A stretch of DNA of 14,080 bases from a virus (taxonomy: Duplodnaviria; Heunggongvirae; Uroviricota; Caudoviricetes). Below the pieces are notes generated by a model. That model had not been told where the DNA came from. It saw nothing but the letters and a program-made list of their open reading frames with translations, and made no database searches. The stretch spans positions 1-14,080 of the IMG/VR virus record IMGVR_UViG_2541047854_000001. One strand, written 5' to 3'. Below, piece by piece: positions 1-14,080 of the stretch. Position numbers and translations under genes: made by a program. Position 1 is the stretch's first letter. Every line of letters starts with the position of its first letter.

Positions 1-201
1 TTACCCATTGGCGCGGCTTAAGAGCTTGTTTTTGAATTCACAATGGTCACGATATAACCATCTTGCGCGCCCGTGGATAACTTTGGCTTTTGGCAAGTCG
101 CCGGACTTAATCCGGTCATAGATGAAGGTTTTACCAAAGCCAGTATCAGCCATGATGAATTTCAAATCAACCAGTGAATCAGGCTGTAGTTCGTGTTGCA
201 T
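1..201 (-). CDS. torI: Prophage excisionase / recombination directionality factor TorI (AlpA/Xis-family winged-helix protein), 66 aa
   Basis: Complete 66-aa ORF, ATG at 201-199 and TAA at 3-1. The translation MQHELQPDSLVDLKFIMADTGFGKTFIYDRIKSG... matches my recollection of K-12 TorI in length and sequence. It sits at the int-distal end of the argW prophage as in K-12. Confidence 0.85.
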   Translation of the reverse strand: MQHELQPDSLVDLKFIMADTGFGKTFIYDRIKSGDLPKAKVIHGRARWLYRDHCEFKNKLLSRANG

Positions 202-220
202 GAGTGCTATCTCCGAATAG

Positions 221-236
221 GGAATCGAACCTGCAA
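221..236. repeat. 16-nt att core (ggaatcgaacctgcaa), exact copy of a segment inside argW at 13012..13027
   Basis: Exact 16/16 identity with the T-arm region of the tRNA at the other end of the element; both flanks diverge immediately. Direct repeat in the same orientation, about 12.8 kb apart. Confidence 0.7.
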
Positions 237-237
237 A

Positions 238-333
238 TCAGGCAATAAAAATACGCTCTATGACGGCGATGGTAGATCAGGATATTTTAAGAAACTGACA
301 GGCCTCATCGAGTGTGAGGCTGTATGGCTCCAT
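238..333 (-). pseudogene. ypdJ: Truncated AlpA/Xis-like excisionase remnant (ypdJ-like): MEPYSLTLDEACQFLKIS, in-frame TGA, frame ends at the att core
   Basis: ATG at 333-331 overlaps the yfdT stop (TAATG). The translation has an AlpA-type HTH N-terminus, is interrupted by TGA at 279-277, continues STIAVIERIFIA and ends at 240-238 just before the att core. Position matches the K-12 ypdJ excisionase fragment between yfdT and torI. Confidence 0.45.
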
Positions 334-638
334 TATTTCACCTCTTGCTGTGACATTGTTGAAAAATGGATATCAGCTCGTTGCTGCCAGACGATCCAAC
401 CGAGAGTCATATCCCATGCCATGTATTCGTTATCGCCGTTTTTTGCTCTCCGACGATCTACTAAGTCACCGAAACGCTTTTCCATGAATAATTCATAAGC
501 TTCGCGTTCATCTGGTTCTACTTCCAGAGATAGGAGTGCGATTTCATAAGCACGGCGCTCAATATCGTCTCGCACGTCAAGGCTGTTGATACGCTCTTTA
601 ATTTCTTTAATCAGTTCTTTGTCGGTAAAAGTGGTCAT
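333..638 (-). CDS. yfdT: CPS-53 prophage protein YfdT, uncharacterized, 101 aa
   Basis: 101-aa ORF with ATG start; the 1-nt stop/start overlap with yfdS (TAATG) suggests translational coupling. Length and gene order match K-12 yfdT. Confidence 0.75.
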   Translation of the reverse strand: MTTFTDKELIKEIKERINSLDVRDDIERRAYEIALLSLEVEPDEREAYELFMEKRFGDLVDRRRAKNGDNEYMAWDMTLGWIVWQQRADIHFSTMSQQEVK

Positions 639-1000
639 TATGCTCCAGCCTCCGGTGCTTTTGGCATTACTGCCCAGTGAGTGATATTGACGTTTTCAAG
701 GTCCCCGACCTGAAATGTCCACTGCCATTCTCCGGTTTCTTTTTGTCCCCAGGTGTACCAGAGAGAACGCCAGCCAATTAGCCAGCCTTCTCCGTTAGCA
801 TCGAATAACAAAACACTTTCATTTGCTGGTGGCAGTTCAGTTGACACTGGTATTACTTTGTTTTCCTGTGCTGCACATTTAGCTTCAAGCGCATCGAATT
901 TACGCACCAGGTATTCAGCATCTGTTTCATTTACTTTCAGATCTCGCGGTACACATCTCCCACGAAGAAACCCTTCCATTTCGAAAACATTCATGCGCAT
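638..1000 (-). CDS. yfdS: CPS-53 prophage protein YfdS, uncharacterized, 120 aa
   Basis: 120-aa ORF with ATG at 1000-998, overlapping the 3' end of yfdR by 10 nt. Length and order match K-12 yfdS. An alternative ATG at 994 overlaps the yfdR stop. Confidence 0.75.
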   Translation of the reverse strand: MRMNVFEMEGFLRGRCVPRDLKVNETDAEYLVRKFDALEAKCAAQENKVIPVSTELPPANESVLLFDANGEGWLIGWRSLWYTWGQKETGEWQWTFQVGDLENVNITHWAVMPKAPEAGA

Positions 1001-1527
1001 TTGCGTAACTCCGATAACTCGTTAAAGCGTTCCATAAACATCCCGTAGGCATGGCCCGGTGCCAGTGGAATCACGTTGAACATCTCTGTTGCCGGGATAC
1101 CTTCCAGTACAGGCCAGAAAGAGCCATCATCAAGCCCGAGATCGCGGCGTTCGGTTGCCAGCATGATGAGATCGGCATATTTCACGGGCGTACTCATAAC
1201 TGGGGGTAACCCGTATTTCTCACGGATTACGGCGTCTATTTTTTCTTCCATTTGTTTATAGTCAGGAAGAAGGCGTTTCAGTGGTGCGGGAATGTCCTGG
1301 CAATACGCTTCTGTTGCATCATGCATTAACGCTTCAAAAGCAAATTCCTGCGGCACCAGCTGGCTGCAAAGAACCGCATGTTGGGCGACGCTGTAGAAGT
1401 GCGAAAGATGACCGGCAAAGCGACAGATATTTGAAAGGGAAACCGCGATATCGTTAATATCGATGTCGTCTTTATTTATCCTGTCATAATAAAAATGCTT
1501 CCCGGAAAAAGTTTTAATAAATGACAT
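991..1527 (-). CDS. yfdR: HD-domain phosphohydrolase (5'-deoxynucleotidase-like) YfdR, 178 aa
   Basis: ATG at 1527-1525 gives 178 aa starting MSFIKTFSGKHFYYDR, preceded by GGGGAA. The track ORF begins 9 codons upstream at a GTG. An H...HD metal-binding signature (SVAQHAV ... LMHDATE) is visible. Length matches K-12 YfdR. Confidence 0.8.
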   Translation of the reverse strand: MSFIKTFSGKHFYYDRINKDDIDINDIAVSLSNICRFAGHLSHFYSVAQHAVLCSQLVPQEFAFEALMHDATEAYCQDIPAPLKRLLPDYKQMEEKIDAVIREKYGLPPVMSTPVKYADLIMLATERRDLGLDDGSFWPVLEGIPATEMFNVIPLAPGHAYGMFMERFNELSELRKCA

Positions 1528-1620
1528 TTTGTTCCCCACGTATATGCGCTGCACCGCGCTGAATTCTGGTAAAAAGAATCCCTCACCATCCGGCGATTAT
1601 TGAGTAAATTACGTTTCCAT

Positions 1621-1642
1621 AAATGCCCCCGCAGGGGCATTT
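1621..1642. other. Intergenic stem-loop between yfdQ and yfdR (9-bp perfect stem aaatgcccc / ggggcattt, 4-nt loop), no U-tract
   Basis: Perfect inverted repeat read directly from the sequence. With no following T-run it looks more like a processing or attenuation hairpin than a strong terminator. Confidence 0.3.
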
Positions 1643-1654
1643 GCAGTAATGAAA

Positions 1655-2479
1655 TCAGGCGGTGAAAGTACCAATAAAGGTTTCTACTTTGCTGTCCTTG
1701 AATTTCTCAACAAGCAGATCACGAAATTCGTTAGCCATTTCTTCCTGCACCGCCTCCAGCTGAATAATGCGCAGAACCAGTACAGGACGATCGCCAGTGA
1801 TAATACTGAGGCGTAATTTAAACGGACGTTCTTTCAGACCTTCAAACGGAACGCATTTAAATTCAAATGCCACTGGCATAATGTCTTTGGTCTTCGCTTC
1901 GACAGACTCCATCAGGGAGCGTTTGCCGCTGAAGTCATTATCTTCAAAATCAGCGGTCTGGTTTGCTTCAATCGTGATTTTACGGACAGCCGCAGCCGCT
2001 TTTGTTGCCTGAATAGCGTCACCATTAGCATCAAAGCCCACAAGATAGTCTGCCCAGTCTTCAATCCATTCTGCTAGTGACTTCTGGGAGTTACGCTCGC
2101 CGTTAATAGACAACAGAGCAGAGAACGGTGCTGTCTTTTTCAGTTTGAGTGTGGCGGTGTTATCTGCGTGACCTGGTTCATCAATAGTACCCAGGTTAAG
2201 CACACTGACGGCTCGCATATTATCGGCATCGATAAAGCAGCGGGTGCCTTCATCTGCAAGATCTTTAGAATAACGGGTAAAGTCATCGATGCTGGCAGTG
2301 GAAAGCGCACCACGGAAACGGAAGCGATTTAAATTAAATTTTTCCAGATCATGAATGCGGAAATTCTCAGGCAATGCCACAGCATCGGCACCAATCTTAC
2401 TGATAATTTCATTAACACCCTGAGCAGAAATAAGGGCATGGATTTGATTAATTGCGGTTGCGTCTAAGTTCTGAGACAT
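1655..2479 (-). CDS. yfdQ: DUF2303-family prophage protein YfdQ, 274 aa
   Basis: 274-aa ORF with ATG at 2479 and a GAGGA Shine-Dalgarno about 7 nt upstream. Length, order and the sequence as I recall it match K-12 YfdQ. Confidence 0.85.
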
Positions 2480-2544
2480 AATAAGTCCTCACTATATAAA
2501 GATATTCAGTGATGAGATAAATAATCGGTTAATTAAGAACGATA

Positions 2545-2907
2545 TTAATGACCTGCTGCGCGGAGTTTTCCGTCAGGTTCACCGGCAAGAGTCAGTAATT
2601 GTCCCTGGTCTTCCTGCAGACTAGTCAGGCGACCACCGCGATTGACATACATTGGCGTTTCGGTGGTGTCTTCTTCGGAAATTTTCCCGCGGTTAGTCGG
2701 GCGAACATATGAGAGTTTGTGTTTGATTTTCACACGGTTCTCATCAAATGGTTCGATTTCCAGGTTGAGTGAGACCTTACCTTTGGTTTTCGTGTTCATC
2801 ACACCGGAAGCGACTTCACTGAGAACTGCGCCGATTTTGGTTTCAAATACGCCGCCGTCCAGCTCCCCAATAAATGCCTGCACATCAGTACTGCGTTCGC
2901 TAGCCAT
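2545..2907 (-). CDS. yfdP: CPS-53 prophage protein YfdP, uncharacterized, 120 aa
   Basis: Internal ATG at 2907-2905 with a strong AGGAG SD (taggagcagaaaaATG) gives 120 aa starting MASERSTDVQ. The track's 226-aa version runs upstream through the GC-rich structured block and is probably an artefact. Confidence 0.75.
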   Translation of the reverse strand: MASERSTDVQAFIGELDGGVFETKIGAVLSEVASGVMNTKTKGKVSLNLEIEPFDENRVKIKHKLSYVRPTNRGKISEEDTTETPMYVNRGGRLTSLQEDQGQLLTLAGEPDGKLRAAGH

Positions 2908-2924
2908 TTTTCTGCTCCTAATCA

Positions 2925-3300
2925 TATCGACCCTGCAAGGTCGGTTGGTTTCTCCACAAAACAGAGAAGAACACCTGCGGTGGCAGCCGCCCGGATGGAT
3001 TGGGTTATGAGCCCGTCGTCCGGTGATGTTCTTCTCTGTTTTGTAAAAAGAGCGGTACCAGCCGGAAGCAAGTGTACAAACTGGTACCGCGAGGACTACA
3101 CACAGCATAAAGTTGTGGTGCCGGGTGCCTCCCGGTGCCTGGCGAAGGTTGCACACCAGGCGGGTGGGTATCCACAGAAGGTCGACTGTCAGCCTCAACC
3201 TTAACCCGCGTGCGCTGAGCCGCATTCACCACAACGCTAAGGATTCTCTCTGGTTGAAAATACTTAGCTGTTATGTGCCTGTCTTTTCACCACTTCAGGC
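2925..3300. other. GC-rich structured noncoding block: candidate ncRNA or cis-acting RNA/DNA element
   Basis: No credible ORF; only overlapping Pro/Arg/Gly-rich ORFs on both strands. Perfect inverted repeats: 18 bp (2956-2973 with 3027-3044, plus 2 bp after a 3-nt bulge), 10 bp (3052-3061 with 3081-3090), 9 bp long-range (3112-3120 with 3227-3235) enclosing three local hairpins. Confidence 0.3.
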
Positions 3301-3345
3301 TCGGTGGTATCTTGGTGTTTTCATATAGCCAAGAAGGAAATAGTT

Positions 3346-3537
3346 ATGACCAAAGAAGAAAAAATTCTTTATTTATTCCAACTATCGGTTAAGACTCACA
3401 CTGCATATCAGACTGCTGCCATGACATCAGATAAAAATTACAGTACGTCAGAAAACCCGATAGACGACATAAGCAAGCTTTACGATAAGTTCGAAGCACT
3501 ACTCGATAAAAAGTTTGCTGAGGCTGGGCTTGAGTGA
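3346..3537 (+). CDS. Hypothetical small protein, 63 aa (MTKEEKILYLFQLSVKTHTAYQ...)
   Basis: ATG at 3346 preceded by AAGGAAA with 5-nt spacing; hydrophilic, no recognisable motif. The track ORF starts 14 codons upstream at a weaker site. Confidence 0.4.
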   Translation: MTKEEKILYLFQLSVKTHTAYQTAAMTSDKNYSTSENPIDDISKLYDKFEALLDKKFAEAGLE

Positions 3538-3705
3538 TTGTTGAATAATCGACAAAACCCAACTTAAATTTTCGTCAGTGGGCTCGATGCCATGTGCGGT
3601 GAGCTCACTTTTCAAAACTCCAAGCAATTCAGAGCTGATTTTCAATATATCTGCTTGATTTCTAACTATTCCCACTTTTTCCTCCCTTGGTCTACGCGCG
3701 GTCAT
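3499..3705 (-). CDS. Hypothetical small protein, 68 aa (or 58 aa from the internal GTG); Arg-rich N-terminus
   Basis: ATG at 3705; inside the ORF, AGGGAGG followed by AAAAA and GTG gives a better initiation site at codon 11. Its 3' end overlaps the convergent 63-aa ORF by 39 nt. First gene left of the repressor/OL region. Confidence 0.3.
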   Translation of the reverse strand: MTARRPREEKVGIVRNQADILKISSELLGVLKSELTAHGIEPTDENLSWVLSIIQQSLKPSLSKLFIE

Positions 3706-3889
3706 GTTTTACGCCCAAACGACTTCACAGTTATTGTTTAAAATCTGGACTTTCATTTCATACACCTGCTTTAACATGAGTGCCTGGTGGCACAACATGA
3801 CTCAACGAATCATCCTGGACTTCATATGCCCCAGGCGGCTACTTCGTGGGCGTCCTGCCTGTTCGTTATCTTTGATACAAAATCTAACT

Positions 3890-3962
3890 TAACTTAGTTA
3901 TTATAGCAAGAGAAAACACCAAACTTTTCTTAGTTCGGTGCCTTAGTTAGAGAAGAGAGGTC
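3890..3962 (-). promoter_or_regulatory. Putative OL/PL-like region: three CTTAGTT half-site repeats and an extended -10 like element downstream of the repressor gene
   Basis: CTTAGTT at 3893-3899, 3929-3935 and 3942-3948, the same motif as in the cI/cro intergenic region. On the minus strand TGcTATAAA lies around 3897-3906. Confidence 0.35.
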
Positions 3963-4589
3963 TTAGAGTTCGTATTGAACTCCTTTGACTACACCAATGA
4001 TAAGGCAATTACCATTGATAGGGATGTTGGGATACCGAGGATTTAATGGCACTAAAAACTTTTGAGGGCCATCGATGACTAATTTTTTTACTGTAGCTTC
4101 GTTTGTTCCATCAAGTCGAGCGATGACTATTTTTCCATGACGAGGTTCTGCATCTGGATCTACAATCACTGTTGCGCCTTCTGGTATTGTTGGGAGGCCA
4201 TTAGGGTTAGTCATGGAGTCACCTTTAACCTCTAATGCAAATGAGTTATCACCAATCTTTAATGATGTATCTACCCACTTGTCCACTTCACTAAACACTT
4301 CTGCTGCCCTGCACTCAGTAAACTGCCCAGCCTGAACCCACGATATTACAGGAACTCTGCGCATGTTTGTGACGAGTTTGCCTTCAAACTCAGCACCATA
4401 AAGAATGTAATCTATTGACGTATTGAAGAACTTCGCTAATTTCGAAAGTGCCTCCCCACCAGGGGTATTGATGTCTTTCTCCCAGTACCCCACAGCAACG
4501 TCGCTTACTCCACAAAATTTACCCAATTCTTTCTGGGACGTTCCGGTAACTCTTCTCAGAGCTTTTATACGCTGACCAACCGTTTCCAT
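3963..4589 (-). CDS. Phage CI-like repressor: XRE-type HTH N-domain plus LexA/S24 peptidase C-domain, 208 aa
   Basis: N-terminal HTH (QKELGKFCGVSDVAVGYWEKD), Ala-Gly candidate cleavage site (VQAGQF), catalytic GDSM serine motif and a downstream Lys (VKKL). Divergent from a Cro-like gene. Confidence 0.85.
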   Translation of the reverse strand: METVGQRIKALRRVTGTSQKELGKFCGVSDVAVGYWEKDINTPGGEALSKLAKFFNTSIDYILYGAEFEGKLVTNMRRVPVISWVQAGQFTECRAAEVFSEVDKWVDTSLKIGDNSFALEVKGDSMTNPNGLPTIPEGATVIVDPDAEPRHGKIVIARLDGTNEATVKKLVIDGPQKFLVPLNPRYPNIPINGNCLIIGVVKGVQYEL

Positions 4590-4686
4590 AGGAGCACCAT
4601 TTCTTGAATTGCTAAGTAATCTTAGTTTTTATTGACCAAAGATAGATTTGTAATTAGCATCTAATAAAACTTAGTTTGGAGGGCGT
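4590..4686. promoter_or_regulatory. Divergent cI/cro operator-promoter region (OR-like)
   Basis: Inverted repeat CTAAG-taat-CTTAG at 4612-4625, CTTAGTT at 4621-4627 and CTTAG at 4670-4674. Candidate rightward promoter: -35 TTGACC at 4632-4637, 17-bp spacer, -10 TAGCAT at 4655-4660; GGAGGG SD at 4678-4683 before the cro ATG at 4687. Confidence 0.5.
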
Positions 4687-4887
4687 ATGACAACTGACGA
4701 TATCGAAAGCTACTTCGGCAGTATTGAGAAAGTTGCTGCTTTTTTCGGCATAACAACTGAAGCCGTTTATCAGTGGCGAAACCGTCCGGGCCAGTTAATT
4801 CCAAAAGGACGTGCAGCAGAAGCTGCATATAGAACTTGCGGACGGTTGCCATTTAAACCTGAGCTTTATGAAAAATCTAATGGATAA
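4687..4887 (+). CDS. Cro-like / YdaS-family small HTH regulator, 66 aa
   Basis: ATG at 4687 with GGAGGG SD; HTH-like segment IEKVAAFFGITTEAVYQWRN. Divergent from the cI-like repressor. Confidence 0.75.
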   Translation: MTTDDIESYFGSIEKVAAFFGITTEAVYQWRNRPGQLIPKGRAAEAAYRTCGRLPFKPELYEKSNG

Positions 4888-5476
4888 ATCGATTAACAGA
4901 AACCACAGAACGATGAGGCTAACCGTGGGTAAGCATCACTGGAAAGTAGAAAAACAGCCTGAGTGGTACGTGAAAGCTGTCAGAAAAACTATCGCAGCGT
5001 TGCCGGGTGGTTACGCTGAAGCAGCTGACTGGCTGGATGTAACAGAAAACGCATTATTTAACCGTCTTCGTGCCGATGGCGATCAGATTTTCCCGCTGGG
5101 ATGGGCAATGATTTTGCAACGTGCTGGTGGAACTCACTTCATTGCTGACGCTGTGGCGCAGTCTGCAAATGGCGTCTTTGTGTCTCTTCCTGACGTCGAG
5201 GATGTGGACAACGCCGATATTAACCAGCGCCTGCTGGAAGTCATTGAACAGATTGGCAGTTATTCCAGACAGATTCGTTCGGCAATCGAAGACGGTGTGG
5301 TGGAACCGCATGAGAAGACAGCAATTAACGACGAGCTGTATCTCTCAATTTCGAAGCTGCAGGAGCATGCAGCACTGGTCTACAAAATCTTTTGCATTTC
5401 AGAAAGTAATGACGCCCGCGAGTGTGCAGCTCCGGGCGCCGTGGCGTGTCGTGACTGTGGAGAAACTAACGCATGA
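4868..5476 (+). CDS. Putative CII/YdaT-like early regulator, possibly chimeric at its C-terminus; start uncertain
   Basis: Immediately follows and overlaps cro in another frame. In-frame starts: GTG 4811 (track), ATG 4868, ATG 4880, and GTG 4925 with a GAGG SD. The Cys-rich C-terminus overlaps the next gene. Product assignment is by position after a YdaS-like Cro. Confidence 0.45.
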
Positions 5477-6044
5477 ACAGTTTAACAACACACTATCGGC
5501 ACTGTTGCCGCCCGGTCCTGCATGGTCAGCCAGCGATCCGGCGATTGCCGGTGCGGCACCTTCATTAACCCGCGTTCATCAGCGTGCGGATGCCCTGATG
5601 CGGGAGCTGGATCCGCGCACCACCACTGAACTGATAAACCGCTGGGAGCGTCTGTGCGGTCTGCCGGATGAATGTATTCCCGCAGGGACACAGACCCTTC
5701 GCCAGCGTCAGCAACGGCTGGATGCGAAGGTTAATCTGGCGGGCGGCATCAATGAGGATTTTTACCTTGCACAGCTTGCTGCCCTGGGCAGACCAGACGC
5801 CACTATCACGCGATACGATAAAAGCACGTTCACCTGCTCATCGGCCTGTACTGACGCGGTGAATGCGCCGGAATGGCGGTATTACTGGCAGATCAACATG
5901 CCAGCCGCCACCAACACCACCTGGATGACATGTGGCGATCCCTGTGATTCCGCGCTGCGTATCTGGGGTGACACCGTTGTCGAGTGTGTGCTTAACAAAC
6001 TCTGCCCGTCGCATACCTACGTAATTTTTAAATATCCGGAGTAA
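5457..6044 (+). CDS. Phage tail protein, Mu gp48 / YmfQ-like (DUF2313 family); start uncertain (GTG 5457, GTG 5451 or ATG 5409)
   Basis: N-terminal [11 protein letters not shown]-type motif and a C-terminal Cys cluster (CGDPCDSAL); sits directly upstream of the tail fiber gene as in Mu-like and e14-like tail modules. The first 96 codons of the track ORF overlap the preceding gene. Confidence 0.6.
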
Positions 6045-6047
6045 TCC

Positions 6048-7061
6048 ATGCATCGTATAGACACGAAAACCGCGCAGAAGGATAAGTTCGGCGCGGGTAA
6101 GAACGGTTTTACCCGTGGTAACCCCCAGACTGGCACGCCTGCCACCGATCTGGATGATGACTACTTTGACATGTTGCAGGAAGAACTTTGTAGCGTTGTT
6201 GAGGCATCCGGTGCCAGTCTGGAGAAGGCGCGGCACGACCAGCTGCTTACCGCGCTTCGTGCGCTGCTGTTAAGCCGCAAGAATCCGTTTGGTGATATCA
6301 AATCGGATGGCACGGTGAAAACGGCTCTCGAAAACCTTGGTTTATCAGACGTTTTACATAAGGGAAATTTTGGTGTCGGGAGTAGGCTGCAAGGTAGTGC
6401 AGCCGGGAATAGCCATGTCGGTGGATTCATGTATGAACCATATCAGGCGAACAATCTTTACCCGCTAAGTGTGGCTTTAATGCAGGCAGCAGGCCCGACA
6501 TCGACAGAATGGGCGCAGCTGGCTGTTTCATATGGTGGGGCATTCAGAGCTTTCCTTGGGCGACAGACTTATAATGGAAATCCTGAAATCAGTGAGTTGT
6601 ACCATGACCAGCGTAAGCCGTCTGCGTCGGATGTTGGTGCCCAACCTCTGAATGCAACTCTCACCACTCTTAGTGGAAAAGATGCGGCAGGATTAAGGAG
6701 CGTCCTAGGGCTTGGAACAACAGCCACAAGAAACGTAGGTACGGGAGCGTCACAAATACCTGATATGAGTTCGTTTTTAAGCGGATCTACAGCATCAGCT
6801 TTTTGGTACAAACTTCCTGGTGGCATGGTGGTGATGGGGGGTAATGCATCTGGAATCGCCTCTGGAACTGCAGGTAATGAGGTCTTCTTCCCAATACCAT
6901 TCCCAAATGCTTGCTCAAGCGTTGTCGTGACATTAGTCAGCAACGGGTTATATGCCGACACAGTCTCGTTTAATACATATATCCCTGGAACTGACCGTTT
7001 TAACATTTATACGAATACAAGCGGCACGTATACTATTTACTACATGGCTTTTGGGAGTTGA
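6048..7061 (+). CDS. Phage side tail fiber protein, 337 aa
   Basis: ATG at 6048 with GGAG SD 6 nt upstream. N-terminus [47 protein letters not shown] is the conserved tail-fiber N-terminal domain; Gly/Ser/Thr-rich distal part. Confidence 0.8.
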
Positions 7062-7062
7062 T

Positions 7063-7479
7063 ATGAACAATTATGTATGGTCTGCATCACATGTTTCATT
7101 TTTTCCAAAATCCATGCTGCCAGATTATGAATCTGCTGGATGGAATCTTTCCGATGTGGTGGATGTTGTTGATGACATTTTTCAAACATACAGATCAATG
7201 CCACCAGAAGGTAAAATTCTTGGGGTTGTTGATGGGATGCCTGAATGGATTGACAAGCCGCCAGTGCCAAATAGCGTGTTGCTTTCAGACGAACTTGCGC
7301 GGCTTGCATCAGAATATAAAAATGACAGAGTTCAATTGAATGACGCATACGTTGCGGCAATGGTAAGCGATAGTCCATCAGAGCAAACTAAGCAGCAGGC
7401 GGTAAGGGATCAAATTATTCAAAGAAAATCTCAGTACACAGCAGACATAGCTGCAGCAAAATTAAAATATCCCATTTAA
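7063..7479 (+). CDS. Tail fiber assembly (chaperone) protein, 138 aa
   Basis: ATG at 7063, 1 nt after the tail fiber stop, with GGGAG SD. The N-terminal YVWSAS...FFP...PEGK...W.D.PP pattern is typical of Tfa proteins. The track ORF starts inside the fiber gene in the same frame. Confidence 0.7.
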   Translation: MNNYVWSASHVSFFPKSMLPDYESAGWNLSDVVDVVDDIFQTYRSMPPEGKILGVVDGMPEWIDKPPVPNSVLLSDELARLASEYKNDRVQLNDAYVAAMVSDSPSEQTKQQAVRDQIIQRKSQYTADIAAAKLKYPI

Positions 7480-7489
7480 GGTGGACATC

Positions 7490-7654
7490 ATGGAAACACA
7501 ATCAAACGAAGAACAAAAACAGAGCCAGCAACAGCAGGATTCTACCGTAAAATTCTGTCCGATATGTGGCTCAACAATGCATCAGCAAGATTATCTGAAT
7601 GGGAAATGGTGGTTTTGTGATGATGAAGAATGCGGTTTTTTTGAGCCCGTCTAA
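7490..7654 (+). CDS. Small zinc-ribbon protein, 54 aa (CPICG ... FCDDEEC), absent from the ORF track
   Basis: ATG at 7490 preceded by AAGGTGGA; Gln-rich N-terminus then CxxC-x16-C-x4-C; TAA at 7652-7654 followed by a terminator hairpin. Confidence 0.5.
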   Translation: METQSNEEQKQSQQQQDSTVKFCPICGSTMHQQDYLNGKWWFCDDEECGFFEPV

Positions 7655-7674
7655 AGTATTTGTTTGCAGGAATT

Positions 7675-7705
7675 AAAGCCCTCTCTGGAGGGCTCATATT
7701 TATTT
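7675..7705. terminator. Bidirectional intrinsic terminator between the convergent zinc-ribbon ORF and acyltransferase gene
   Basis: 7-bp GC-rich stem agccctc / gagggct (7677-7683 with 7688-7694), 4-nt loop, T-rich tract after it on the plus strand and a moderately T-rich tract on the minus strand. Confidence 0.5.
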
Positions 7706-8488
7706 TGCGTATTTCTTTCTAAACCCAAGAAATGGCTTTTCAATCAACTCAAAACATATCTTAGAAAAGATAAGAATTGCAGGTAGTAAAATCAAAAAAT
7801 TAATGACAGCATTAACATTATCATTGTCGATAAACCTCGGAATTCCAAATGTTTTATGGAATGAGTAAAGAACCACACCATGCAATATGTATTCAGAAAA
7901 GCTTACCTCACCAAGTTTAGATAATCCATTATCTATAATGGCAGGTGTTTTTATGCTTGACGATAAGTAAGCAAATACAAAAATACCCCACATGCAAGCC
8001 TCCAGATATGATAAAGAAGTTACATATGGTGTTGGAATGTACCATAAACCCTCAGATCTAAGTGTTAAAAGAGAAAAGAAGACAATTGCAGAACTGGCGA
8101 TGATAAAGATCGGATTAGCGAATTTATCCTTATGGTTTATATATAGATATCCAAACACCATCCCAATTAATAGCTGGTCAAATCGACCAAGCATTGTTAA
8201 GTAGTAATAATGATTGTTCAGATATGAATCCGACCCTAATTCCCCACCATAGATTGCAACGATCATGGTTCTCCAGGCAAGCCAAAAAAGAGACAGATAC
8301 ACAATATACTTCACACCATATCTGTTAAGAAAAAGAGCTAGGAAAGGAAATATTAAGTAAAATTGAAATTCTACTGCTATAGTCCACGTTTGCCCGAAAT
8401 GAGCCAGCAACGGTGATGTTTGCAAATTCGAGAAAAGGAACAAGGATAAAGCATCAGAAAATGTGGCAGTACCTCTAGATAGAGACAT
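7700..8488 (-). CDS. Acyltransferase family 3 (O-antigen O-acetyltransferase-like) membrane protein, N-terminally truncated relative to the family; possible pseudogene
   Basis: TWTIAVEFQFYLIFPF matches the family's SVE.QFY motif, but only about 34 residues after the first ATG. An in-frame R-x-x-R segment (FNRFIRIFPLL) lies upstream of that ATG, and the frame stays open up to the gtrS stop codon. AT-rich and polytopic. Confidence 0.65.
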   Translation of the reverse strand: MSLSRGTATFSDALSLFLFSNLQTSPLLAHFGQTWTIAVEFQFYLIFPFLALFLNRYGVKYIVYLSLFWLAWRTMIVAIYGGELGSDSYLNNHYYYLTMLGRFDQLLIGMVFGYLYINHKDKFANPIFIIASSAIVFFSLLTLRSEGLWYIPTPYVTSLSYLEACMWGIFVFAYLSSSIKTPAIIDNGLSKLGEVSFSEYILHGVVLYSFHKTFGIPRFIDNDNVNAVINFLILLPAILIFSKICFELIEKPFLGFRKKYAK

Positions 8489-8565
8489 GGCGGTAATCCA
8501 TGCTCCAGAAAGGAGTGGGAAGATGCGAATAAATCTATTGAAGATAAAAGACTTATAAGAAATTG

Positions 8566-8595
8566 AAAATCCTCCGGCATAGCCGGAGGATTTTT
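8566..8595 (-). terminator. Strong intrinsic terminator hairpin immediately downstream of the GtrS-like gene
   Basis: 13-bp stem (aaaatcctccggc / gccggaggatttt) with a 3-nt loop, T-runs on both sides, 2 nt after the gtrS stop. Confidence 0.55.
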
Positions 8596-8596
8596 G

Positions 8597-10261
8597 TTAA
8601 AGGGTAAAGTCTATTTGATAATATCTTTTAGAAGGCGTTGTTGAGTCAAATGCTCCAAATGAAGCGTTTTTGATATACCATGATGGCATGTAGTTCAATT
8701 TCGCATAAAGGAACACCCTATCATTTACATAAGCGTAATTTGGCTCGAAATCAAAATTGTGATAATTATCAAATATATCCATCACATGGAAAAGGAAACG
8801 TTGATTAGGCTGTTCAGATAGCCTTTCTTCATGCGTTATTTCAAATAAAAACACAGTCTCCAAACAATATTTATCAGTATACATATAAATACCTTTCAAG
8901 CCTTTCTTGGTAAACATGTTACTGCTGTCGTGAATTTTATATTTATTATTATCTATAACAGAATAATCAAATATTGTGCCATATCCTATAATGTTTTTTT
9001 TATTGTAGTATTTGGACATGGCATCAAAGTTTGTCCATGTGTCAAACATATATGTTGAACTTGGCATTGCTTTGAAATAAAACTCAGGTATTAATGTTTC
9101 TTTTTCATTACTATCATTTTCTTGTATTAATTTAATTCGAATTGAGTTTTGTAAATTAATCGAATGATAAGCGGATATTACCGATATAGACTCAACAATA
9201 AAAGTCAAGAACATCATAGAGTAAAAAACTCTAATAAAATTAGTGCTTAAAATATCATTACGAATAAAGTTTAATGAATATGCGATAGACATTAAACAAA
9301 ATACAAATGATGGTGTTTTCGCTCTATCAGGGAATGCTGGAGAAAACACCATAACAAAAGAGCAGCCTAAAGAAGCCAATAAAAGCACTATGGATATTAA
9401 AAAATCAGTAGGCTTGCCATCTTTTGTAATTAGATTCGATTTTTGAATGCGTATACATAATAAAATTGATACTATAGCTATACTATAAGCTAGTTTAGAT
9501 GATTTAAAGACTTCGGGCATTCTATGAAAAAAATGCAAGTCAATTTTTTCTATTAAAGAAAGTGAGCGCCAGTCTGCGAATGATGGATCCATCATCCTCG
9601 ACTCATTTCCTGGTGTTGCCAATAAAAAAACAGCACCTGTTATTACTAAAATAAAAATAGGCAAAAGCCTTAAATCATTCTTTTTTATTATTACTAGTAA
9701 GTATAAATAACAAAGTAAGATTATACCAATCAAAGTTAAGCTTGCATTTTCATTTGTACATCCTGCTAGTAATGATGCAGGATAAACAACAGGATTGATT
9801 TTTTTATTTTGTATGTAACCAATTACTTCTTTAGCTACAAAAACATATAAAACGGAAGTCCATAAATAGTTTGCACTACCAACAATCCATAAATTTGATT
9901 GTCCAAAGCTTGGATGAGAAAGAAAAAAAATAATCGAAATAAAAGATAATATATACCAGCTTTTTACGGTGTTGTCAAATTTTGAAATTAAATGCAAAAG
10001 CAAGAAAACACCAAATGTTTGAATTGCTGCTATAACAATTTTATTATTCACCAACAACAATGTTGGACTTATAAAATCAGCAACAATTCTTCCACTCCAT
10101 GTTAGATAATGATGCAAGTGCGCATCAAAATTGAATCCAATAATTGCATAGCCATAATCATCTGACTGGAGAGGTGTGTAGTAATTCAAAGTGTAAACTA
10201 CAGCAAGAAATGTTGCGCATACAAAAAAATAAATATATTTATTTAATTTTGGATATTTCAC
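8597..10261 (-). CDS. Type-specific O-antigen glucosyltransferase (GtrS/GtrC-like), 554 aa, polytopic with a soluble C-terminal domain
   Basis: Third gene of a gtrA-gtrB operon; GTG start overlaps the gtrB stop (GTGA). Very AT-rich with many hydrophobic segments. It is 554 aa against 443 aa for K-12 YfdI as I recall it, so a different serotype-specific allele. Confidence 0.7.
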
Positions 10262-11181
10262 TTATCACCTCTGTGCTTTAAGATGTATTTTGGTCTTTTC
10301 TTGGTCTCTATATATATTCTACCAATATATTCACCTAAAAAACCTATACCGATTAACTGAACACCGCCAAGGAATAATATCGAAACAAGTAAAGAAGGAT
10401 ACCCCCTTACAGGATTACCAAAGGCGATTGTATCAATGATCATCCATGCACCATAAAAGAATGAAAAACTAGCCACGACAAGTCCGATATAGGTCCACAT
10501 TCTTAAAGGGAATGTTGAAAAGCTGGTAATGCCCTCAAGCGCTAGGTTCCATAGTTTCCAACCATTAAATTTTGTGCTACCAGCGACACGTTCTGCGCGA
10601 ACATACTCAACAACATCGGTGCGACCACCTACCCAACTCAATACACCTTTCATGAAAAGATTCCGCTCAGGTAGCAGCTTAATGTTCTCAACCACCTCTC
10701 GTGACATAAGACGGAAGTCACCGACATTCTCTTCGATCTGAGGGGTGCTGATTTTGTTATGTAGTTTATAGAACCACTCAGCCGTCTTACGCTTAAGGCG
10801 CCCATCAGTAGAGCGATCAGCGCGCTTGGCAAGCACCATGTCCGCGCCTGCCTGCCACTTCTCAATCAGATGAGGTATAACTTCAATCGGATCTTGTAAG
10901 TCGACATCGATCGGTATAATCGCTTCGCCGGTTGCGTGATCAAGTCCGGCGAATAGAGCAGGTTCTTTACCAAAGTTGCGTGTAAATGACAATGGAACAA
11001 CTAGCGGGTCTGAAATAGCAAGAGCGTTAATAATTGATTCCGTGGCATCTTTGCTTCCGTCATTTATGAAAATAATTTCTACTTCATATGGCTTCAACTC
11101 TTCGAATTCACGTACCGTTTTATAAAAAATTGGTATCGTATCTTCTTCATTGAAGACAGGAACGACCAGAGATATCTTCAT
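10258..11181 (-). CDS. gtrB: Bactoprenol glucosyltransferase GtrB (GT2 family), 307 aa
   Basis: [14 protein letters not shown]-terminus and DVDLQD (DxD) motif with two C-terminal TM segments; ATG overlaps the gtrA stop (ATGA). Corresponds to K-12 yfdH. Confidence 0.9.
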
Positions 11182-11540
11182 TTTGCATCCCTAAATACAA
11201 TGAACTTTGAATAGACGAAACCGCACACCAGGCTGATGGCGGAAAAGGTAATAAGTGTGATAAACGGAGGAAGGGAGCATTTGTCAGCAGCCCAACCTAC
11301 AGTCGCACTCAACATTCCCATGAATCCAACGTATAACATGTAGCGCATCGTTGTAGTTGATGCTTTGAATGTGAATCTTGCATTCGCGAAGAAGCTAAAA
11401 CTCACAGCCACAACGAACCCGGCTAAGTTTGCAAGGGTTTGATTGGTATGCGCGGCGTAGATACATACACCAAAAACCACCCAGTGTATAAGTGTGTTCA
11501 GTACACCAATCGAGGTATACCTCGCGAATAGCTTTAACAT
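11178..11540 (-). CDS. gtrA: Bactoprenol-linked glucose translocase (flippase) GtrA, 120 aa
   Basis: 120-aa hydrophobic GtrA-family protein directly upstream of and coupled to gtrB. Corresponds to K-12 yfdG. Confidence 0.85.
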
Positions 11541-11622
11541 TTCTTCTATCAGCTAATAATCAAAGGCATGAAGTCTATCATCCAAGTCTCAATTGATCGA
11601 GACTTGCTGTAATCACTGAAAC

Positions 11623-11658
11623 ACACAAAGCCTTGCACTGGATTGCAAGGCTTTGTGT
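11623..11658 (-). terminator. 15-bp perfect hairpin downstream of intS (acacaaagccttgca / tgcaaggctttgtgt, 6-nt loop); weak U-tract
   Basis: Perfect inverted repeat 20 nt after the intS stop, lying between intS and the gtr operon. Candidate terminator or insulator. Confidence 0.4.
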
Positions 11659-11678
11659 CATCCGATAGTTAAGGTGGA

Positions 11679-12836
11679 TCACTCCACCTTTTCATCAAGC
11701 CAGTCCGCCCACCACTGCATCATTTCTCTTCGCTTGTCGAGATACTGAGCATGGTTGTAAATTCCACGTACAGATCCGCCATTGGCATGTGCCAGTTGCA
11801 TTTCAATAGCGTCAGCAGGCCATTCGTGCTCGTTCATAATCGTGCTGAATTCATGCCTGAATCCGTGACCGCTTTCCAGACCTTCATAGCCGATTTGTTT
11901 GATCACAAGCAGTACCGCATTCTCGCAGATTGGCTTCTTCTTATCGTTGCGCCCGGCAAAAACAAACTCTGATACTGGCTTGGTGATTGAGCTTAGCGTA
12001 GTGAGAAGTTCAACTACCTGGTCTGATATAGGAACAACATGAATCTTGCGGCCCTTCATCACACTGGCGTCGATAGTGATAATCCTGTTTTCAAAATCGA
12101 CGTTCTTCCATTGCATGGAACGAAGCTCTTTCGTTCTTAGGGCTGTGTAGCGTAAAACTTTGGTCGCAATGAGCGATACGATACTTCCTGAAAATGTTGC
12201 AAGTGCTTTGTTGAATTCCGGGATCTGGTCGGCAGGTAAAAACGGGAAGTTCTTCTTGCGGTATCCCTTCATGGCGTCAGCAAGGTCAGGTGCCGGGTTA
12301 TATTTAGCCCTACCAGTGACAATAGCGTAACGGAAAACCTCGCCGCATCTTCTGCGGGCTTTGTTGGCTCGCTCCATTGCACCGCGATCTTCAAATCTGC
12401 GGATTACTTCCAGCAGTTGCATCGGCTCAATATCCTGAATTTCAAGGCTGCCGATGATAGGTAAAATGTCGTCATCAAACATTTTTGCAAGTTCAGTTGC
12501 ATAGCCTACTGACCAGACTTGCTTCTTGTGCTCGTACCATTCCTTGTATATTGCACTAAAGGAATTGTTGTTAGACGAAGCCTTTTTCGCCTTTACCGGA
12601 TCGATACCAACCGAGATGTCTTTCCTCGCAGTCCATGCCTTATCCCTTGCCTCCTGCAAAGTCATTAGCGGATATTTTCCTACGGTCAGGATTTTCTCCT
12701 TACCGTCAATCTTGTAGCGAAGCTGCCATACCTTTTTCCCTGACACAGGGACATAAAGGTACAGGCCATTACCATCGAGAAGGCGGTATGGTTTTTCTTT
12801 CGGCTTTGCTGCTTCAATCTGCTTAACGGTGAGCAT
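11679..12836 (-). CDS. intS: Prophage integrase IntS (P4-type tyrosine recombinase), 385 aa
   Basis: Adjacent to and co-oriented with argW. ATG at 12836 gives 385 aa starting MLTVKQIEAAKPKEKPYRLLDGNGLYLYV. The track ORF starts 12 codons upstream at GTG 12872. C-terminal catalytic region contains HGFRH and a tyrosine. Confidence 0.9.
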   Translation of the reverse strand: MLTVKQIEAAKPKEKPYRLLDGNGLYLYVPVSGKKVWQLRYKIDGKEKILTVGKYPLMTLQEARDKAWTARKDISVGIDPVKAKKASSNNNSFSAIYKEWYEHKKQVWSVGYATELAKMFDDDILPIIGSLEIQDIEPMQLLEVIRRFEDRGAMERANKARRRCGEVFRYAIVTGRAKYNPAPDLADAMKGYRKKNFPFLPADQIPEFNKALATFSGSIVSLIATKVLRYTALRTKELRSMQWKNVDFENRIITIDASVMKGRKIHVVPISDQVVELLTTLSSITKPVSEFVFAGRNDKKKPICENAVLLVIKQIGYEGLESGHGFRHEFSTIMNEHEWPADAIEMQLAHANGGSVRGIYNHAQYLDKRREMMQWWADWLDEKVE

Positions 12837-12997
12837 GGGTAAAAATCCGGTGGGTAAAATTATTTTATCCACTTTTTACCCGTCATGGAGTGCGGCTGTC
12901 AACGATCTGAAGCGAACCATGACAAACTGTGAATCTACGGAAGGCTTGATATTTAGGGGGTTTTGCGGACTGGTACGGATGGGAGCGAACTGATAAA

Positions 12998-13072
12998 TGG
13001 TGTCCCCTGCAGGAATCGAACCTGCAATTAGCCCTTAGGAGGGGCTCGTTATATCCATTTAACTAAGAGGAC
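12998..13072 (-). tRNA. argW: tRNA-Arg (anticodon CCU), 75 nt, encoded CCA
   Basis: Reverse complement GTCCTCTTAGTTAAATGGATATAACGAGCCCCTCCTAAGGGCTAATTGCAGGTTCGATTCCTGCAGGGGACACCA folds as a cloverleaf: 7-bp acceptor stem with one G-U pair, anticodon stem AGCCC/GGGCT with loop CTCCTAA, T-arm GCAGG/CCTGC. Confidence 0.9.
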
Positions 13073-13125
13073 AATGCGGCATGAGTATACCCGCTAATGG
13101 AGTGCGGGGTAAGTACGCTGCCGCT
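13073..13125 (-). promoter_or_regulatory. Putative argW promoter (-10 TATACT about 12 nt upstream of the mature tRNA 5' end)
   Basis: On the minus strand TATACT lies at 13088-13083, followed by a GC-rich discriminator-like catgccgc. The -35 is weak. Confidence 0.3.
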
Positions 13126-13147
13126 CGATTGCTTAAACCCTCGCCAT

Positions 13148-14080
13148 TTATGCCGGGTTTTTATAATTTTTCTTAATGTTTTCCGCACGTTCTGCTTTTT
13201 GGCGTGCTTCTGCTTTACGCTTATTGCTCATGTCGTTACGAATCTGTGCATGACTCATTAACGCGAAGATAAAGGTGCCGCCGCAGATGTTCCCCGCTAA
13301 AGTAGGTAGTGCGAAGGGCCAGATGAAATCGCTCCAGTGCAGCGTACCGTTAAACACCAGATAGAGGATTTCAACAGAACCGACCACGATATGGGTGGTG
13401 TCACCCAGGGCAATAAGCCAGGTCATCAATATAATCACCACAATCTTTGCCGCACCCGCTGCAGGAAACATCCAAACCATAGTGGCGATCAGCCAGCCGG
13501 AAATGATCGCGTTGGCAAACATCTCGCTGGGGGTGTTCTTCATCACATCCATGCCGATTTTGACAAATGCATCGCGAGTTTCTTCATTGAAGATAGGCAT
13601 ATATTCAAATGCCCACGCCGCAATACCTGTCCCGAGAATATTACCCAGCAGCACGACGCCCCATAACCGTATAAGTAAGCCGACGTTGCTCATTGTCGGT
13701 TTTTGCATGACGGGTAGTACCGCAGTCACGGTATTTTCGGTAAATAATTGCTGGCGGGCCATAATGACGATAATAAAACCAAAGGTATAACCGAGATTCT
13801 CCAGCAAGAAGCTGCCCGGCACACCTTCCAGTTCGACATGAAATATCCCTTTTGCCAGTAACGAAGCGCCCATCGACAGACCCGCCGCAATGGCTGACCA
13901 CAGTAGCGCCATTGCGTCGCGTTCCAGCTCTTTTTCACCATCCTGGCGGATATGCTCATGAATTGCCATCGCCCGGGAGGGGAGTCGGTCTTCATCTATT
14001 TCTATTTTTTTGCCGCGCTCTTTTTCTTCGCTCTCAACTTCAATTTCGTCGCTGTGTTGATCAATTTTGTCGTTGTCCAT
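13148..14080 (-). CDS. yfdC: Formate/nitrite transporter (FNT) family inner-membrane protein YfdC, 310 aa
   Basis: ATG at 14080-14078, exactly at the window edge. Acidic N-terminal tail followed by multiple TM segments. Length and position next to argW match K-12 yfdC. Confidence 0.85.
   Translation of the reverse strand: MDNDKIDQHSDEIEVESEEKERGKKIEIDEDRLPSRAMAIHEHIRQDGEKELERDAMALLWSAIAAGLSMGASLLAKGIFHVELEGVPGSFLLENLGYTFGFIIVIMARQQLFTENTVTAVLPVMQKPTMSNVGLLIRLWGVVLLGNILGTGIAAWAFEYMPIFNEETRDAFVKIGMDVMKNTPSEMFANAIISGWLIATMVWMFPAAGAAKIVVIILMTWLIALGDTTHIVVGSVEILYLVFNGTLHWSDFIWPFALPTLAGNICGGTFIFALMSHAQIRNDMSNKRKAEARQKAERAENIKKNYKNPA

What the first reader, a model, noticed from the sequence alone, without database searches (positions are those of the whole stretch)
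202..333. att core copy lies between a truncated excisionase remnant and intact torI
The 16-nt segment ggaatcgaacctgcaa at 221-236 is identical to part of argW at 13012-13027. Neither flank of the left copy resembles the tRNA 3' end, so it looks like a phage-phage junction rather than a simple phage-host attR. Directly upstream, an AlpA/Xis-like frame (ypdJ-like) carries an in-frame TGA and stops at the core; directly downstream, an intact 66-aa torI starts 20 nt from the core. Two excisionase genes flanking an att core suggest either a tandem or composite integration at argW with torI from a second element, or that the torI promoter is built on the att region. Either reading bears on how TorI and IntS control excision.
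Basis: partly seen in the sequence, partly recalled or inferred. Interest (0 to 1): 0.5.

Follow-up and report, generated by a model that had tools for sequence, protein, structure and literature searches.

The report
tRNA T-arm look-alike upstream of torI
The 16-base repeat is real, but it is not the prophage's recombination site; it is a short copy of the argW tRNA T-arm kept just upstream of the excision gene torI in many related phages, probably as a control element, while the true attachment core lies 74 bases past torI, outside the window.

Summary
The window is a KplE1/CPS-53-type prophage at argW. The sequence facts hold. GGAATCGAACCTGCAA occurs only at 221-236 and 13012-13027. torI (1-201, minus) is intact. 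The ypdJ-like frame has an in-frame TGA.

The 16-mer is not the att core. The published core, CTGCAGGGGACACCAT, sits at 12997-13012 in argW. An empty argW site joined at that core exists in 912 of 5426 complete E. coli genomes.

ypdJ is the 18-codon stump of an SfV/P22-type xis. An SfV-type xis-int-attP module was replaced by a cassette of terminator, T-arm motif, torI, attP(argW) and intS. The 16-mer lies about 35-40 nt inside that cassette.

The T-arm motif is identical in the functional phages HK620 and Sf6. Its centre, GTTCGATT(T)CC, sits about 29 nt before the torI start in 13 divergent lineages whose silent sites are near saturation, so it is under selection.

My best guess is a binding site for IntS and/or TorI that gates torI expression. 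That function is inferred, not shown. The module is already known; the motif appears undescribed.

The parts
221..236 (-). argW T-arm look-alike, TTGCAGGTTCGATTCC on the minus strand. Its conserved centre GGTTCGATTCC is 221-231.
   Evidence: Exact 16-nt match to argW 13012-13027. Identical in HK620, Sf6 and IME10. GTTCGATT(T)CC is invariant in 13 divergent lineages about 29 nt before the torI ATG.
1..201 (-). torI, the recombination directionality factor (66 aa, intact). The window begins at its stop codon.
   Evidence: ORF listing. 100% identical to PDB 1Z4H, Tor inhibition protein. Annotated torI in E. coli genomes.
211..214 (-). torI Shine-Dalgarno GGAG, 6 nt downstream of the motif.
   Evidence: Read from the sequence. 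GGAG is conserved in all lineages.
247..272 (-). Decayed copy of the intrinsic terminator that precedes the motif: CCATCGCCGTCATAGAGCGTATTTTT here, against the intact CCATCGCCGCATCAATGCGGTTTTTTT in IME10 and L042.
   Evidence: Alignment with IME10 and IMG/VR loci. No terminator is detected in the window. An intact terminator lies directly upstream of the motif in HK620.
277..333 (-). ypdJ-like stump: the first 18 codons of an SfV/P22-type xis, plus TGA (279-277) in place of Arg19 AGA.
   Evidence: About 96% nt identity to SfV from orf28 into xis, ending at window 277. SfV Xis matches HTH_17 and TIGR01764.
333..638 (-). yfdT, the SfV orf28 homologue. This is the last intact backbone gene before the replaced module.
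12997..13012 (-). True att core (attL copy), CTGCAGGGGACACCAT: the 3' end of argW plus one base.
   Evidence: Published core (PMC2951348; PMC8787464). Located. Its partner copy is at L001 2912-2927, 74 nt past the torI stop and outside the window.
13012..13027 (-). The T-arm of argW itself (end of the variable region, T-stem 5' strand and T-loop). It lies immediately left of the core, so it is the presumed IntS 'B' core-type half-site of attB/attL.
   Evidence: The published attL substrate primer starts at GCTAATTGCAGGTTCGATTCC (PMC3509656). That IntS binds here is inferred.
12998..13072 (-). argW, tRNA-Arg(CCT).
   Evidence: ARAGORN.
12903..12990 (-). TorI boxes I1-I5 of the P' arm: GTTCG 12990-12986, GTCCG 12970-12966, GTTTG 12927-12923 (I3, mutated in this strain), GTTCG 12917-12913 and GATCG 12907-12903. 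They overlap the intS promoter.
   Evidence: Box cores GTTCG/GATCG/GTCCG and the two-block layout are from PMC2951348. Mapped. The offsets 22/42/85/95/105 from the core are conserved in five lineages.
11679..12836 (-). intS, the tyrosine integrase, transcribed away from attL.
   Evidence: Annotation of the identical region in isolate AF56. NCBIfam PRK09692 integrase domain.
11654..11654 (-). Right edge of the swapped module. Homology to SfV resumes here, 25 nt after the intS stop, at a terminator hairpin ahead of gtrA/yfdG.
   Evidence: Local alignment of the window with SfV.

Best explanation
**What it is (shown)**
- The 16-mer is a selected cis-element, not a crossover site. It is a copy of the argW T-arm.
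- That T-arm is the sequence lying immediately left of the IntS crossover region in attB, i.e. the presumed 'B' core-type half-site.
- The copy sits in the torI leader, between an upstream intrinsic terminator and the torI ribosome-binding site.
- It belongs to the mobile cassette [terminator - T-arm motif - torI - P arm - core - P' arm - intS]. KplE1, HK620, Sf6, IME10, Kapi1 and many enterobacterial prophages share this cassette.
- In this prophage the cassette replaced an SfV-type xis-int-attP module, which left ypdJ as an 18-codon xis stump.
- The real attR core lies 74 nt beyond torI.

**How it most likely works (inferred, not shown)**
- The motif is a docking site for the module's own recombination proteins. 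It is identical to what the IntS core-binding domain must recognise in attB, and it contains the TorI recognition pentamer GTTCG.
- Occupancy just upstream of the Shine-Dalgarno sequence would block read-through or initiation into torI.
- That would keep the excision factor off in the lysogen until strong antiterminated early transcription overrides the block.
For: **Not the crossover site**
- The published core is CTGCAGGGGACACCAT.
- The second copy of the core is found 74 nt past torI in FORC_082 and K-12.
- The empty attB joined at that core occurs in 912 of 5426 genomes. A junction through the 16-mer occurs in 0 of 5426.
- The functional attR of 135 bp excludes the 16-mer.

**Part of the cassette**
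- The motif is identical in HK620 and Sf6, with homology running from the core to about 15 nt beyond the motif.
- The mosaic junction with the xis stump is at about 265-277, and the right edge is at 11654.

**Under selection**
- GTTCGATT(T)CC is invariant in 13 lineages (E. coli, Serratia, Citrobacter, Pantoea, Edwardsiella, Erwinia phage and others), at -26 to -35 from the ATG and mostly at -29/-28.
- The flanks are unconserved, and four-fold-site identity in torI between the lineages is mostly 0.35-0.6, near saturation.
- The motif is duplicated in tandem in Erwinia phage Midgardsormr38 and in L126, L129 and L130.
- It is unique in the 38-kb HK620 genome.
- 64 of 119 viral-contig hits to CAGGTTCGATTCCC lie directly upstream of a torI-like ORF.

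**Link to the recombination proteins**
- TorI box cores are GTTCG, GATCG and GTCCG (PMC2951348).
- The phage-side half-site next to the core reads TTCGATGTA|TGCAGGGG in most lineages. The tRNA reads TTCGATTCC|TGCAGGGG.
- The conserved block of the motif ends where the attP/attB identity block begins.

**Relevance**
- PtorI is described as 'non-characterized', and RDF expression is named as the switch for excision (PMC2951348).
Against: - No binding or expression data exist for this site; the function is inference.
- The motif departs from the TorI box consensus YAGTTCGY. It has A at +5, which occurs in 0 of 25 P'-arm boxes, and it is not phased at 10 bp with other boxes.
- Isolated core-type integrase sites are usually weak binders (general knowledge of lambda Int).
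- Several lineages lack the motif, including the isolated phages vB_Kpn_Chronis and vB_EhrS_49. The motif is therefore dispensable for the lysogenic cycle.
- No sigma-70 consensus promoter was found next to it.
Confidence: 0.45

Rival explanations
1. Functionless relic. The T-arm copy is a scar of how the cassette first formed, for example an aberrant Int-mediated or illegitimate event that joined the left half of attB to the torI leader, or an older and longer tRNA identity block. It persists only because it is linked to torI.
For: - The E. coli version matches argW over 16 nt, ending at the base where the true core begins. That looks like a half-site joined at the exchange point.
- The 5' flanks in other lineages keep partial TT-CA similarity to the tRNA.
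- The motif is missing in some isolated phages.
Against: - Eight to eleven contiguous bases are invariant in 13 lineages whose silent sites are near saturation and whose adjacent spacers are unalignable.
- The distance to the ATG is conserved.
- Independent tandem duplications exist.
- The sequence 3' of the motif shows no trace of the acceptor strand.
Confidence: 0.2
2. The 16-mer is a working or recently working att core that marks a tandem prophage junction, with torI belonging to a second element integrated at argW.
For: - The exact 16-nt repeat is in direct orientation with argW.
- An excisionase remnant lies on one side and an intact RDF gene on the other.
Against: - The published core is a different, adjacent 16-mer, and its partner lies beyond torI.
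- 0 of 5426 genomes carry the junction predicted from recombination at the 16-mer, against 912 for the true core.
- The single, non-tandem phages HK620 and Sf6 carry the motif in the same place.
- The xis-stump junction lies 35-40 nt away.
- No overlap-region sequence (TGCAGGG) follows the motif.
Confidence: 0.03
3. Promoter element. The region is the cII-activated 'pI' promoter annotated in HK620 and Sf6, with TTGCctgatTTGC as the cII site, or another promoter for torI and intS.
For: - GenBank annotation of HK620 places a promoter at 1664-1702 and a cII site at 1689-1701. Sf6 carries a 'pI' annotation.
- TTATTGCCTG is shared by a subset of lineages.
Against: - The repeat spacing is N5, whereas the HK620 pRE site reads TTGC-N6-TTGT.
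- TTGC-N5/6-TTGC occurs 9 times in HK620 against 6.7 expected.
- The second TTGC is not conserved outside E. coli, whereas GGTTCGATTCC is.
- No sigma-70-like hexamer pair is detected.
- A promoter there would make Xis together with Int, which is the wrong logic for integration.
Confidence: 0.1
4. RNA-level element in the torI mRNA leader: either a T-loop/T-arm mimic, or an anti-Shine-Dalgarno segment (UUCC pairing with GGAG) that controls translation or processing.
For: - UUCC ... GGAG can pair in every lineage, by my reading.
- The Edwardsiella version forms a 6-bp hairpin around the motif.
Against: - RNAalifold finds no consensus pairs in the 13-lineage alignment.
- The E. coli leader folds no better than shuffled sequence (z = -1.17).
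- There is no Rfam match.
- The T-stem is not maintained in most lineages.
- An anti-SD role would not explain the invariant GTTCGA.
Confidence: 0.1

Closest known systems
KplE1/CPS-53 - HK620 - Sf6 - CUS-3 - Kapi1 recombination module (IntS integrase, TorI RDF, attP between xis and int; Panis/Ansaldi)
   Same: - TorI is 100% identical.
- intS sits next to argW with its promoter inside attL.
- The core is CTGCAGGGGACACCAT.
- Five TorI boxes are present in the P' arm.
- int and the RDF gene lie at opposite prophage ends.
   Different: - Nothing differs in architecture; this window is a member of that module.
- The T-arm motif upstream of torI is present in all E. coli members. I did not find it mentioned in the accessible papers.
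- In this strain box I3 reads GTTTG.
SfV / P22-type xis-int-attP(thrW) module
   Same: The backbone on both sides of the cassette is SfV-like, and the first 18 codons of xis are retained: yfdT (SfV orf28) through the 5' end of xis at about 96% nt identity on one side, and the gtrA side, more diverged, on the other.
   Different: The C-terminal part of xis, int and the thrW-type attP are gone. They are replaced by terminator - T-arm motif - torI - attP(argW) - intS.
RDFs that double as transcription regulators (P2 Cox, 186 Apl, P4 Vis; TorI repressing PintS)
   Same: A small winged-helix RDF binds short direct repeats and also controls promoters. TorI already represses intS through boxes I3-I5 (PMC2951348).
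   Different: Here the candidate operator is a single tRNA-like site (occasionally double) in front of the RDF gene itself. It fits the integrase half-site better than the RDF box, and no binding has been shown.
tRNA 3'-end identity blocks of phage attP sites (Williams 2002 classes; recalled from memory)
   Same: The sequence is copied from the target tRNA gene and carried on the phage.
   Different: Normal identity blocks run from the crossover to the tRNA 3' end, so that the gene is restored. This piece lies 5' of the crossover, is separated from the core by 293 bp containing torI, and is not needed to rebuild argW.

Membership tests
att crossover core of the IntS system | Sequence equals the duplicated core that bounds the whole element | tested here: not met
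   The published core is CTGCAGGGGACACCAT. The 16-mer is the adjacent T-arm segment. The left copy lies inside the prophage, upstream of torI. The real second core lies 74 nt past torI.
att crossover core of the IntS system | Natural empty sites or excision products are joined at this sequence | tested here: not met
   0 of 5426 complete E. coli genomes carry the junction predicted for the 16-mer. 912 of 5426 carry attB joined at the true core.
att crossover core of the IntS system | Lies within the minimal functional attR | tested here: not met
   The primers of the 135-bp in-vitro attR (PMC3509656) span from the last 20 nt of torI into host DNA. Window 221-236 is excluded.
KplE1/HK620/Sf6 torI-attP-intS module | TorI-type RDF and IntS-type integrase at opposite prophage ends, flanking attP in the circular form | tested here: met
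   torI is at 1-201 and intS at 11679-12836, both on the minus strand. The cores lie beyond torI and in argW.
KplE1/HK620/Sf6 torI-attP-intS module | Five TorI boxes (GTTCG/GTCCG/GATCG) in two blocks on attL, overlapping PintS | tested here: met
   Boxes lie at offsets 22, 42, 85, 95 and 105 from the core. I3 is GTTTG in this strain.
P22/SfV-type excisionase (ypdJ stump) | Homology to the Xis N-terminal helix-turn-helix | tested here: met
   The 18 codons are identical in protein to SfV Xis except for one residue (Q13/D13), at about 96% nt identity. HTH_17 scores E = 4e-4 for the stump and 6e-9 for SfV Xis.
P22/SfV-type excisionase (ypdJ stump) | Full-length, uninterrupted reading frame | tested here: not met
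   TGA replaces Arg19, and homology ends at window 277 of a 116-codon gene. It is a pseudogene remnant.
TorI operator | GTTCG-type pentamer core | tested here: met
   The motif contains GTTCG.
TorI operator | Flanks fit YAGTTCGY, and boxes occur in arrays phased at 10 or 20 bp | tested here: not met
   +5 is A in the motif and never A in 25 P'-arm boxes. -1 is G, which is rare. Duplicated copies are 13 or 16 bp apart.
IntS core-type (B) half-site | Same sequence as the tRNA segment abutting the crossover region | tested here: met
   16 of 16 identical in E. coli. The conserved block ends at the first base of the core.
IntS core-type (B) half-site | Bound by the IntS C-terminal domains | not testable with these tools
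   Needs EMSA or footprinting.
cII-dependent pI promoter | TTGC-N6-TTGC straddling a -35 region, conserved among relatives | tested here: not met
   The spacing is N5. The pattern frequency is at chance level (9 against 6.7). The second TTGC is not conserved outside E. coli.
tRNA-like / T-arm RNA structure | Conserved stem closing the 7-nt T-loop; covariation | tested here: not met
   RNAalifold finds 0 pairs. Fold z = -1.17. There is no Rfam hit.

The most novel reading that the evidence does not exclude
The motif is a decoy 'B' half-site through which the integrase, which is made constitutively in lysogens, sits on the leader of the excisionase gene and blocks its expression. TorI is already known to repress intS. 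Together the two would form a mutual-repression switch built from att-site parts, which would answer the open question of what gates RDF expression in prophages whose int and xis are uncoupled.
Probability: 0.2. Interest if true: 0.65.

Novelty: new variant of a known kind. Interest (0 to 1): 0.4.

Why it matters
In KplE1-type prophages, excision depends only on whether TorI is made. The authors who defined the system state that PtorI is uncharacterised and that understanding excision control requires studying RDF gene expression (PMC2951348).

A short element that is strongly conserved, matches the target tRNA and sits exactly in the torI leader is a concrete, mutable candidate for that control point. 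It can be tested in the well-behaved phages HK620 and Sf6.

If the element has no function, the result is still useful. It corrects the att assignment for this window and documents a clean module swap between SfV-type and argW-type recombination cassettes.

Tried and rejected
- **Decayed full att copy (T-arm plus acceptor strand) upstream of torI.** Alignment of the 3' flank to TGCAGGGGACACCA in 13 lineages was no better than shuffled sequence.
- **RNA structure.** RNAalifold, a single-sequence fold and Rfam were all negative.
- **Sigma-70 promoter scan.** Nothing was found on the torI strand.
- **cII-site reading.** The pattern occurs at chance frequency and has the wrong spacing.
- **Extra copies of the motif in HK620.** None were found.
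- **Literature search for the 16-mer or the 11-mer.** It returned only tRNA probes and unrelated tRNA constructs.
- **Panis 2007 (JBC) and Menouni 2013 (PNAS).** Neither is held in the library. From memory only, the PNAS paper reports that Rho-dependent termination keeps torI silent. I could not check where its terminator maps relative to the motif.
- **Source strain of the window.** No genome in the collection covers more than 61% of the window in one place.

Full report
**1. What is in the window**

ARAGORN finds one tRNA, argW (tRNA-Arg CCT), at 12998-13072 on the minus strand. The first 201 bases are the reverse complement of an intact 66-aa ORF. That ORF is 100% identical to the Tor inhibition protein TorI, PDB 1Z4H.

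The first 1.2 kb matches the torI-yfdT-yfdR end of KplE1/CPS-53-type prophages in thousands of E. coli genomes. Identity is 99.8% to strain FORC_082 and 96.2% to K-12. intS lies at 11679-12836 next to argW, followed by gtrA/yfdG, yfdH and other genes. No genome in the collection matches the whole window in one place, so this prophage is a mosaic.

**2. The observation**

GGAATCGAACCTGCAA is exact at 221-236 and 13012-13027. No other site in the window matches at up to two mismatches, and 0.01 matches are expected by chance.
- torI starts 19 nt from the left copy.
- On the minus strand a frame begins at 333-331 and overlaps the yfdT stop codon. It reads MEPYSLTLDEACQFLKIS, then TGA at 279-277, and closes at a second TGA at 240-238.
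- The flank 3' of the left copy does not resemble the tRNA acceptor strand.

**3. It is not the att core**

The published duplicated core of KplE1 is CTGCAGGGGACACCAT (PMC2951348). Kapi1, Sf6 and HK620 have the same site (PMC8787464). In the window this is 12997-13012, the 3' end of argW.

I extended the sequence leftward using FORC_082 (L001) and K-12 (L002). The second copy of the true core lies 74 nt past the torI stop and is followed by host DNA and dsdC. torI is therefore inside the prophage and next to attR, as the literature describes.

Two further tests agree:
- The attB predicted by joining the flanks at the true core exists at up to 100% identity in 912 of 5426 complete E. coli genomes.
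- The attR fragment that works in vitro is 135 bp. It runs from the last 20 nt of torI into host DNA, so it excludes 221-236 (PMC3509656).

**4. What the excisionase remnant is**

The stump is about 96% identical in DNA to phage SfV, from orf28 (the yfdT homologue) into the first 18 codons of SfV xis. Homology stops at window 277, and TGA replaces the AGA codon for Arg19. SfV Xis is a P22-type HTH_17/'excise' protein, not AlpA-type.

Beyond the stump, relatives such as IME10 and several IMG/VR prophages carry an intact intrinsic terminator, CCATCGCCGCATCAATGCGGTTTTTTT. In the window this has decayed to CCATCGCCGTCATAGAGCGTATTTTT, at 272-247.

On the other side of the module, homology to SfV resumes 25 nt after the intS stop, at window 11654. 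It continues through a terminator hairpin into gtrA.

So, on an SfV-like backbone, [xis C-terminus - int - attP(thrW)] was replaced by [terminator - T-arm motif - torI - attP(argW) - intS]. In that sense the locus is composite. However, the mosaic junction lies 35-40 nt upstream of the 16-mer, and nothing indicates tandem integration.

**5. The 16-mer is a conserved element of the cassette**

The functional phages HK620 and Sf6 carry the identical TTGCAGGTTCGATTCC 19 nt upstream of hkaC/gp18, which is TorI. It sits directly after an intrinsic terminator. Homology with KplE1 runs from the core to about 15 nt beyond the motif.

I searched one genome per species and IMG/VR with a TorI alignment. 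This gave 184 upstream regions and 59 distinct 60-nt leaders. In 13 divergent lineages, GTTCGATT(T)CC is invariant and sits 26-35 nt before the ATG, mostly at -29/-28. These lineages are:
- E. coli
- Serratia fonticola
- a Citrobacter
- two Pantoea
- Edwardsiella
- Erwinia phage Midgardsormr38
- several uncultivated contigs

The bases on either side, and the spacer to the Shine-Dalgarno sequence, are not alignable. Identity at four-fold degenerate sites of torI between these lineages is mostly 0.35-0.6, near saturation. Decay therefore cannot explain the conservation.

Further points:
- Some lineages carry two tandem copies, 13 or 16 bp apart.
- The motif is unique in the 38-kb HK620 genome.
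- 64 of 119 viral-contig hits to CAGGTTCGATTCCC lie directly upstream of a torI-like ORF.
- The motif is absent from some lineages, including the isolated phages vB_Kpn_Chronis and vB_EhrS_49, where xis is embedded in the early operon. It is therefore an accessory element, not an essential one.

**6. What it most likely does**

Three facts point to the module's own proteins:
- TorI recognises GTTCG-type pentamers (PMC2951348), and the motif contains one.
- The motif is, base for base, the tRNA segment that lies immediately left of the crossover region in attB/attL. Its conserved block ends where the attP/attB identity block begins.
- The phage-side half-site next to the core reads TTCGATGTA in most lineages, against TTCGATTCC in the tRNA. 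TTCGAT is therefore plausibly what the IntS core-binding domain reads.

Against a pure TorI operator, 25 P'-arm boxes from five lineages give the consensus YAGTTCGY with C or T at +5. The motif always has A there, and it is not phased with other boxes. Its conservation pattern follows the tRNA, not the TorI box.

I therefore favour an IntS 'B'-type half-site look-alike, possibly also touched by TorI. It would sit between a terminator and the torI ribosome-binding site and hinder expression of the RDF in the lysogen. This is inference; nothing here shows binding. The authors of the system call PtorI 'non-characterized' and name RDF expression as the switch for excision.

**7. Rivals**

- *Neutral scar of the cassette's origin.* This fits the exact abutment with the core but not the conservation.
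- *The pI/cII annotation in the HK620 and Sf6 records.* It is not supported. The spacing is N5, the pattern is at chance frequency, and it is not conserved outside E. coli.
- *An RNA element.* It is not supported by RNAalifold, folding energy or Rfam.

**8. Verdict**

- The repeat is real and non-random.
- The att assignment is wrong.
- The composite-origin idea is right in a different form.
I did not find it described in the accessible literature.
- The system as a whole is already known. The motif is a modest but testable addition to it.

Noticed in passing
window 12923-12927 (minus strand): TorI box I3 of attL reads GTTTG here, where K-12 and HK620 have GTTCG. I3-I5 are the boxes through which TorI represses intS, so this strain may respond differently to TorI.
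   Followed up: partly
window 2750-2760 (+): There is a third near-copy of the T-loop motif, GGTTCGATTTC, with one mismatch. It lies in the yfdQ/yfdP region on the opposite strand. At one mismatch 0.26 hits are expected in the window, so it is probably chance.
   Followed up: no
window 1-5500 versus 5494-14080: The prophage is a mosaic. The torI-proximal part resembles K-12 and FORC_082 KplE1 early genes. The argW-proximal 8.6 kb is 100% identical to isolate AF56 and carries Mu-like baseplate and tail-fibre remnants, an acyltransferase and a DUF6056 gtr gene. No genome in the collection covers more than 61% of the window in one place.
   Followed up: partly
L192 (NZ_OZ546963.1, isolate AF56), locus 1-2200: In this strain emrY directly abuts an internal phage gene (DNA circularization protein). 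The torI end of the prophage therefore appears to be deleted, and by my recollection of K-12 gene order so is the dsdCXA locus. That would trap the prophage remnant and remove the D-serine utilisation genes.
   Followed up: no
L002 (K-12) 3329-3331, equivalent to window 331-333: In K-12 the start codon of the xis stump is ATA rather than ATG, so the remnant is further decayed there than in this window.
   Followed up: no
attL, window 12986-13021 (minus strand): The T-loop GTTCG of argW itself lies 31 bp, about three helical turns, upstream of TorI box I1. It is therefore roughly in phase with the TorI array. I do not know whether TorI touches the tRNA gene in attL.
   Followed up: no
L016 (Dryocola sp. 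BD626) about 2470-2500: Here the terminator and TTATTGCCTG are fused directly to the ribosome-binding site. This looks like a precise loss of the T-arm motif and would make a natural deletion variant for comparison.
   Followed up: no
L117 (IMG/VR 2563367136_000004) about 1465-1485: This Edwardsiella-type leader has the loop changed (GGTTAGACTCC), while the flanking inverted repeat GACAGG/CCTGTC is kept. It is the only case that hints at a hairpin constraint.
   Followed up: no
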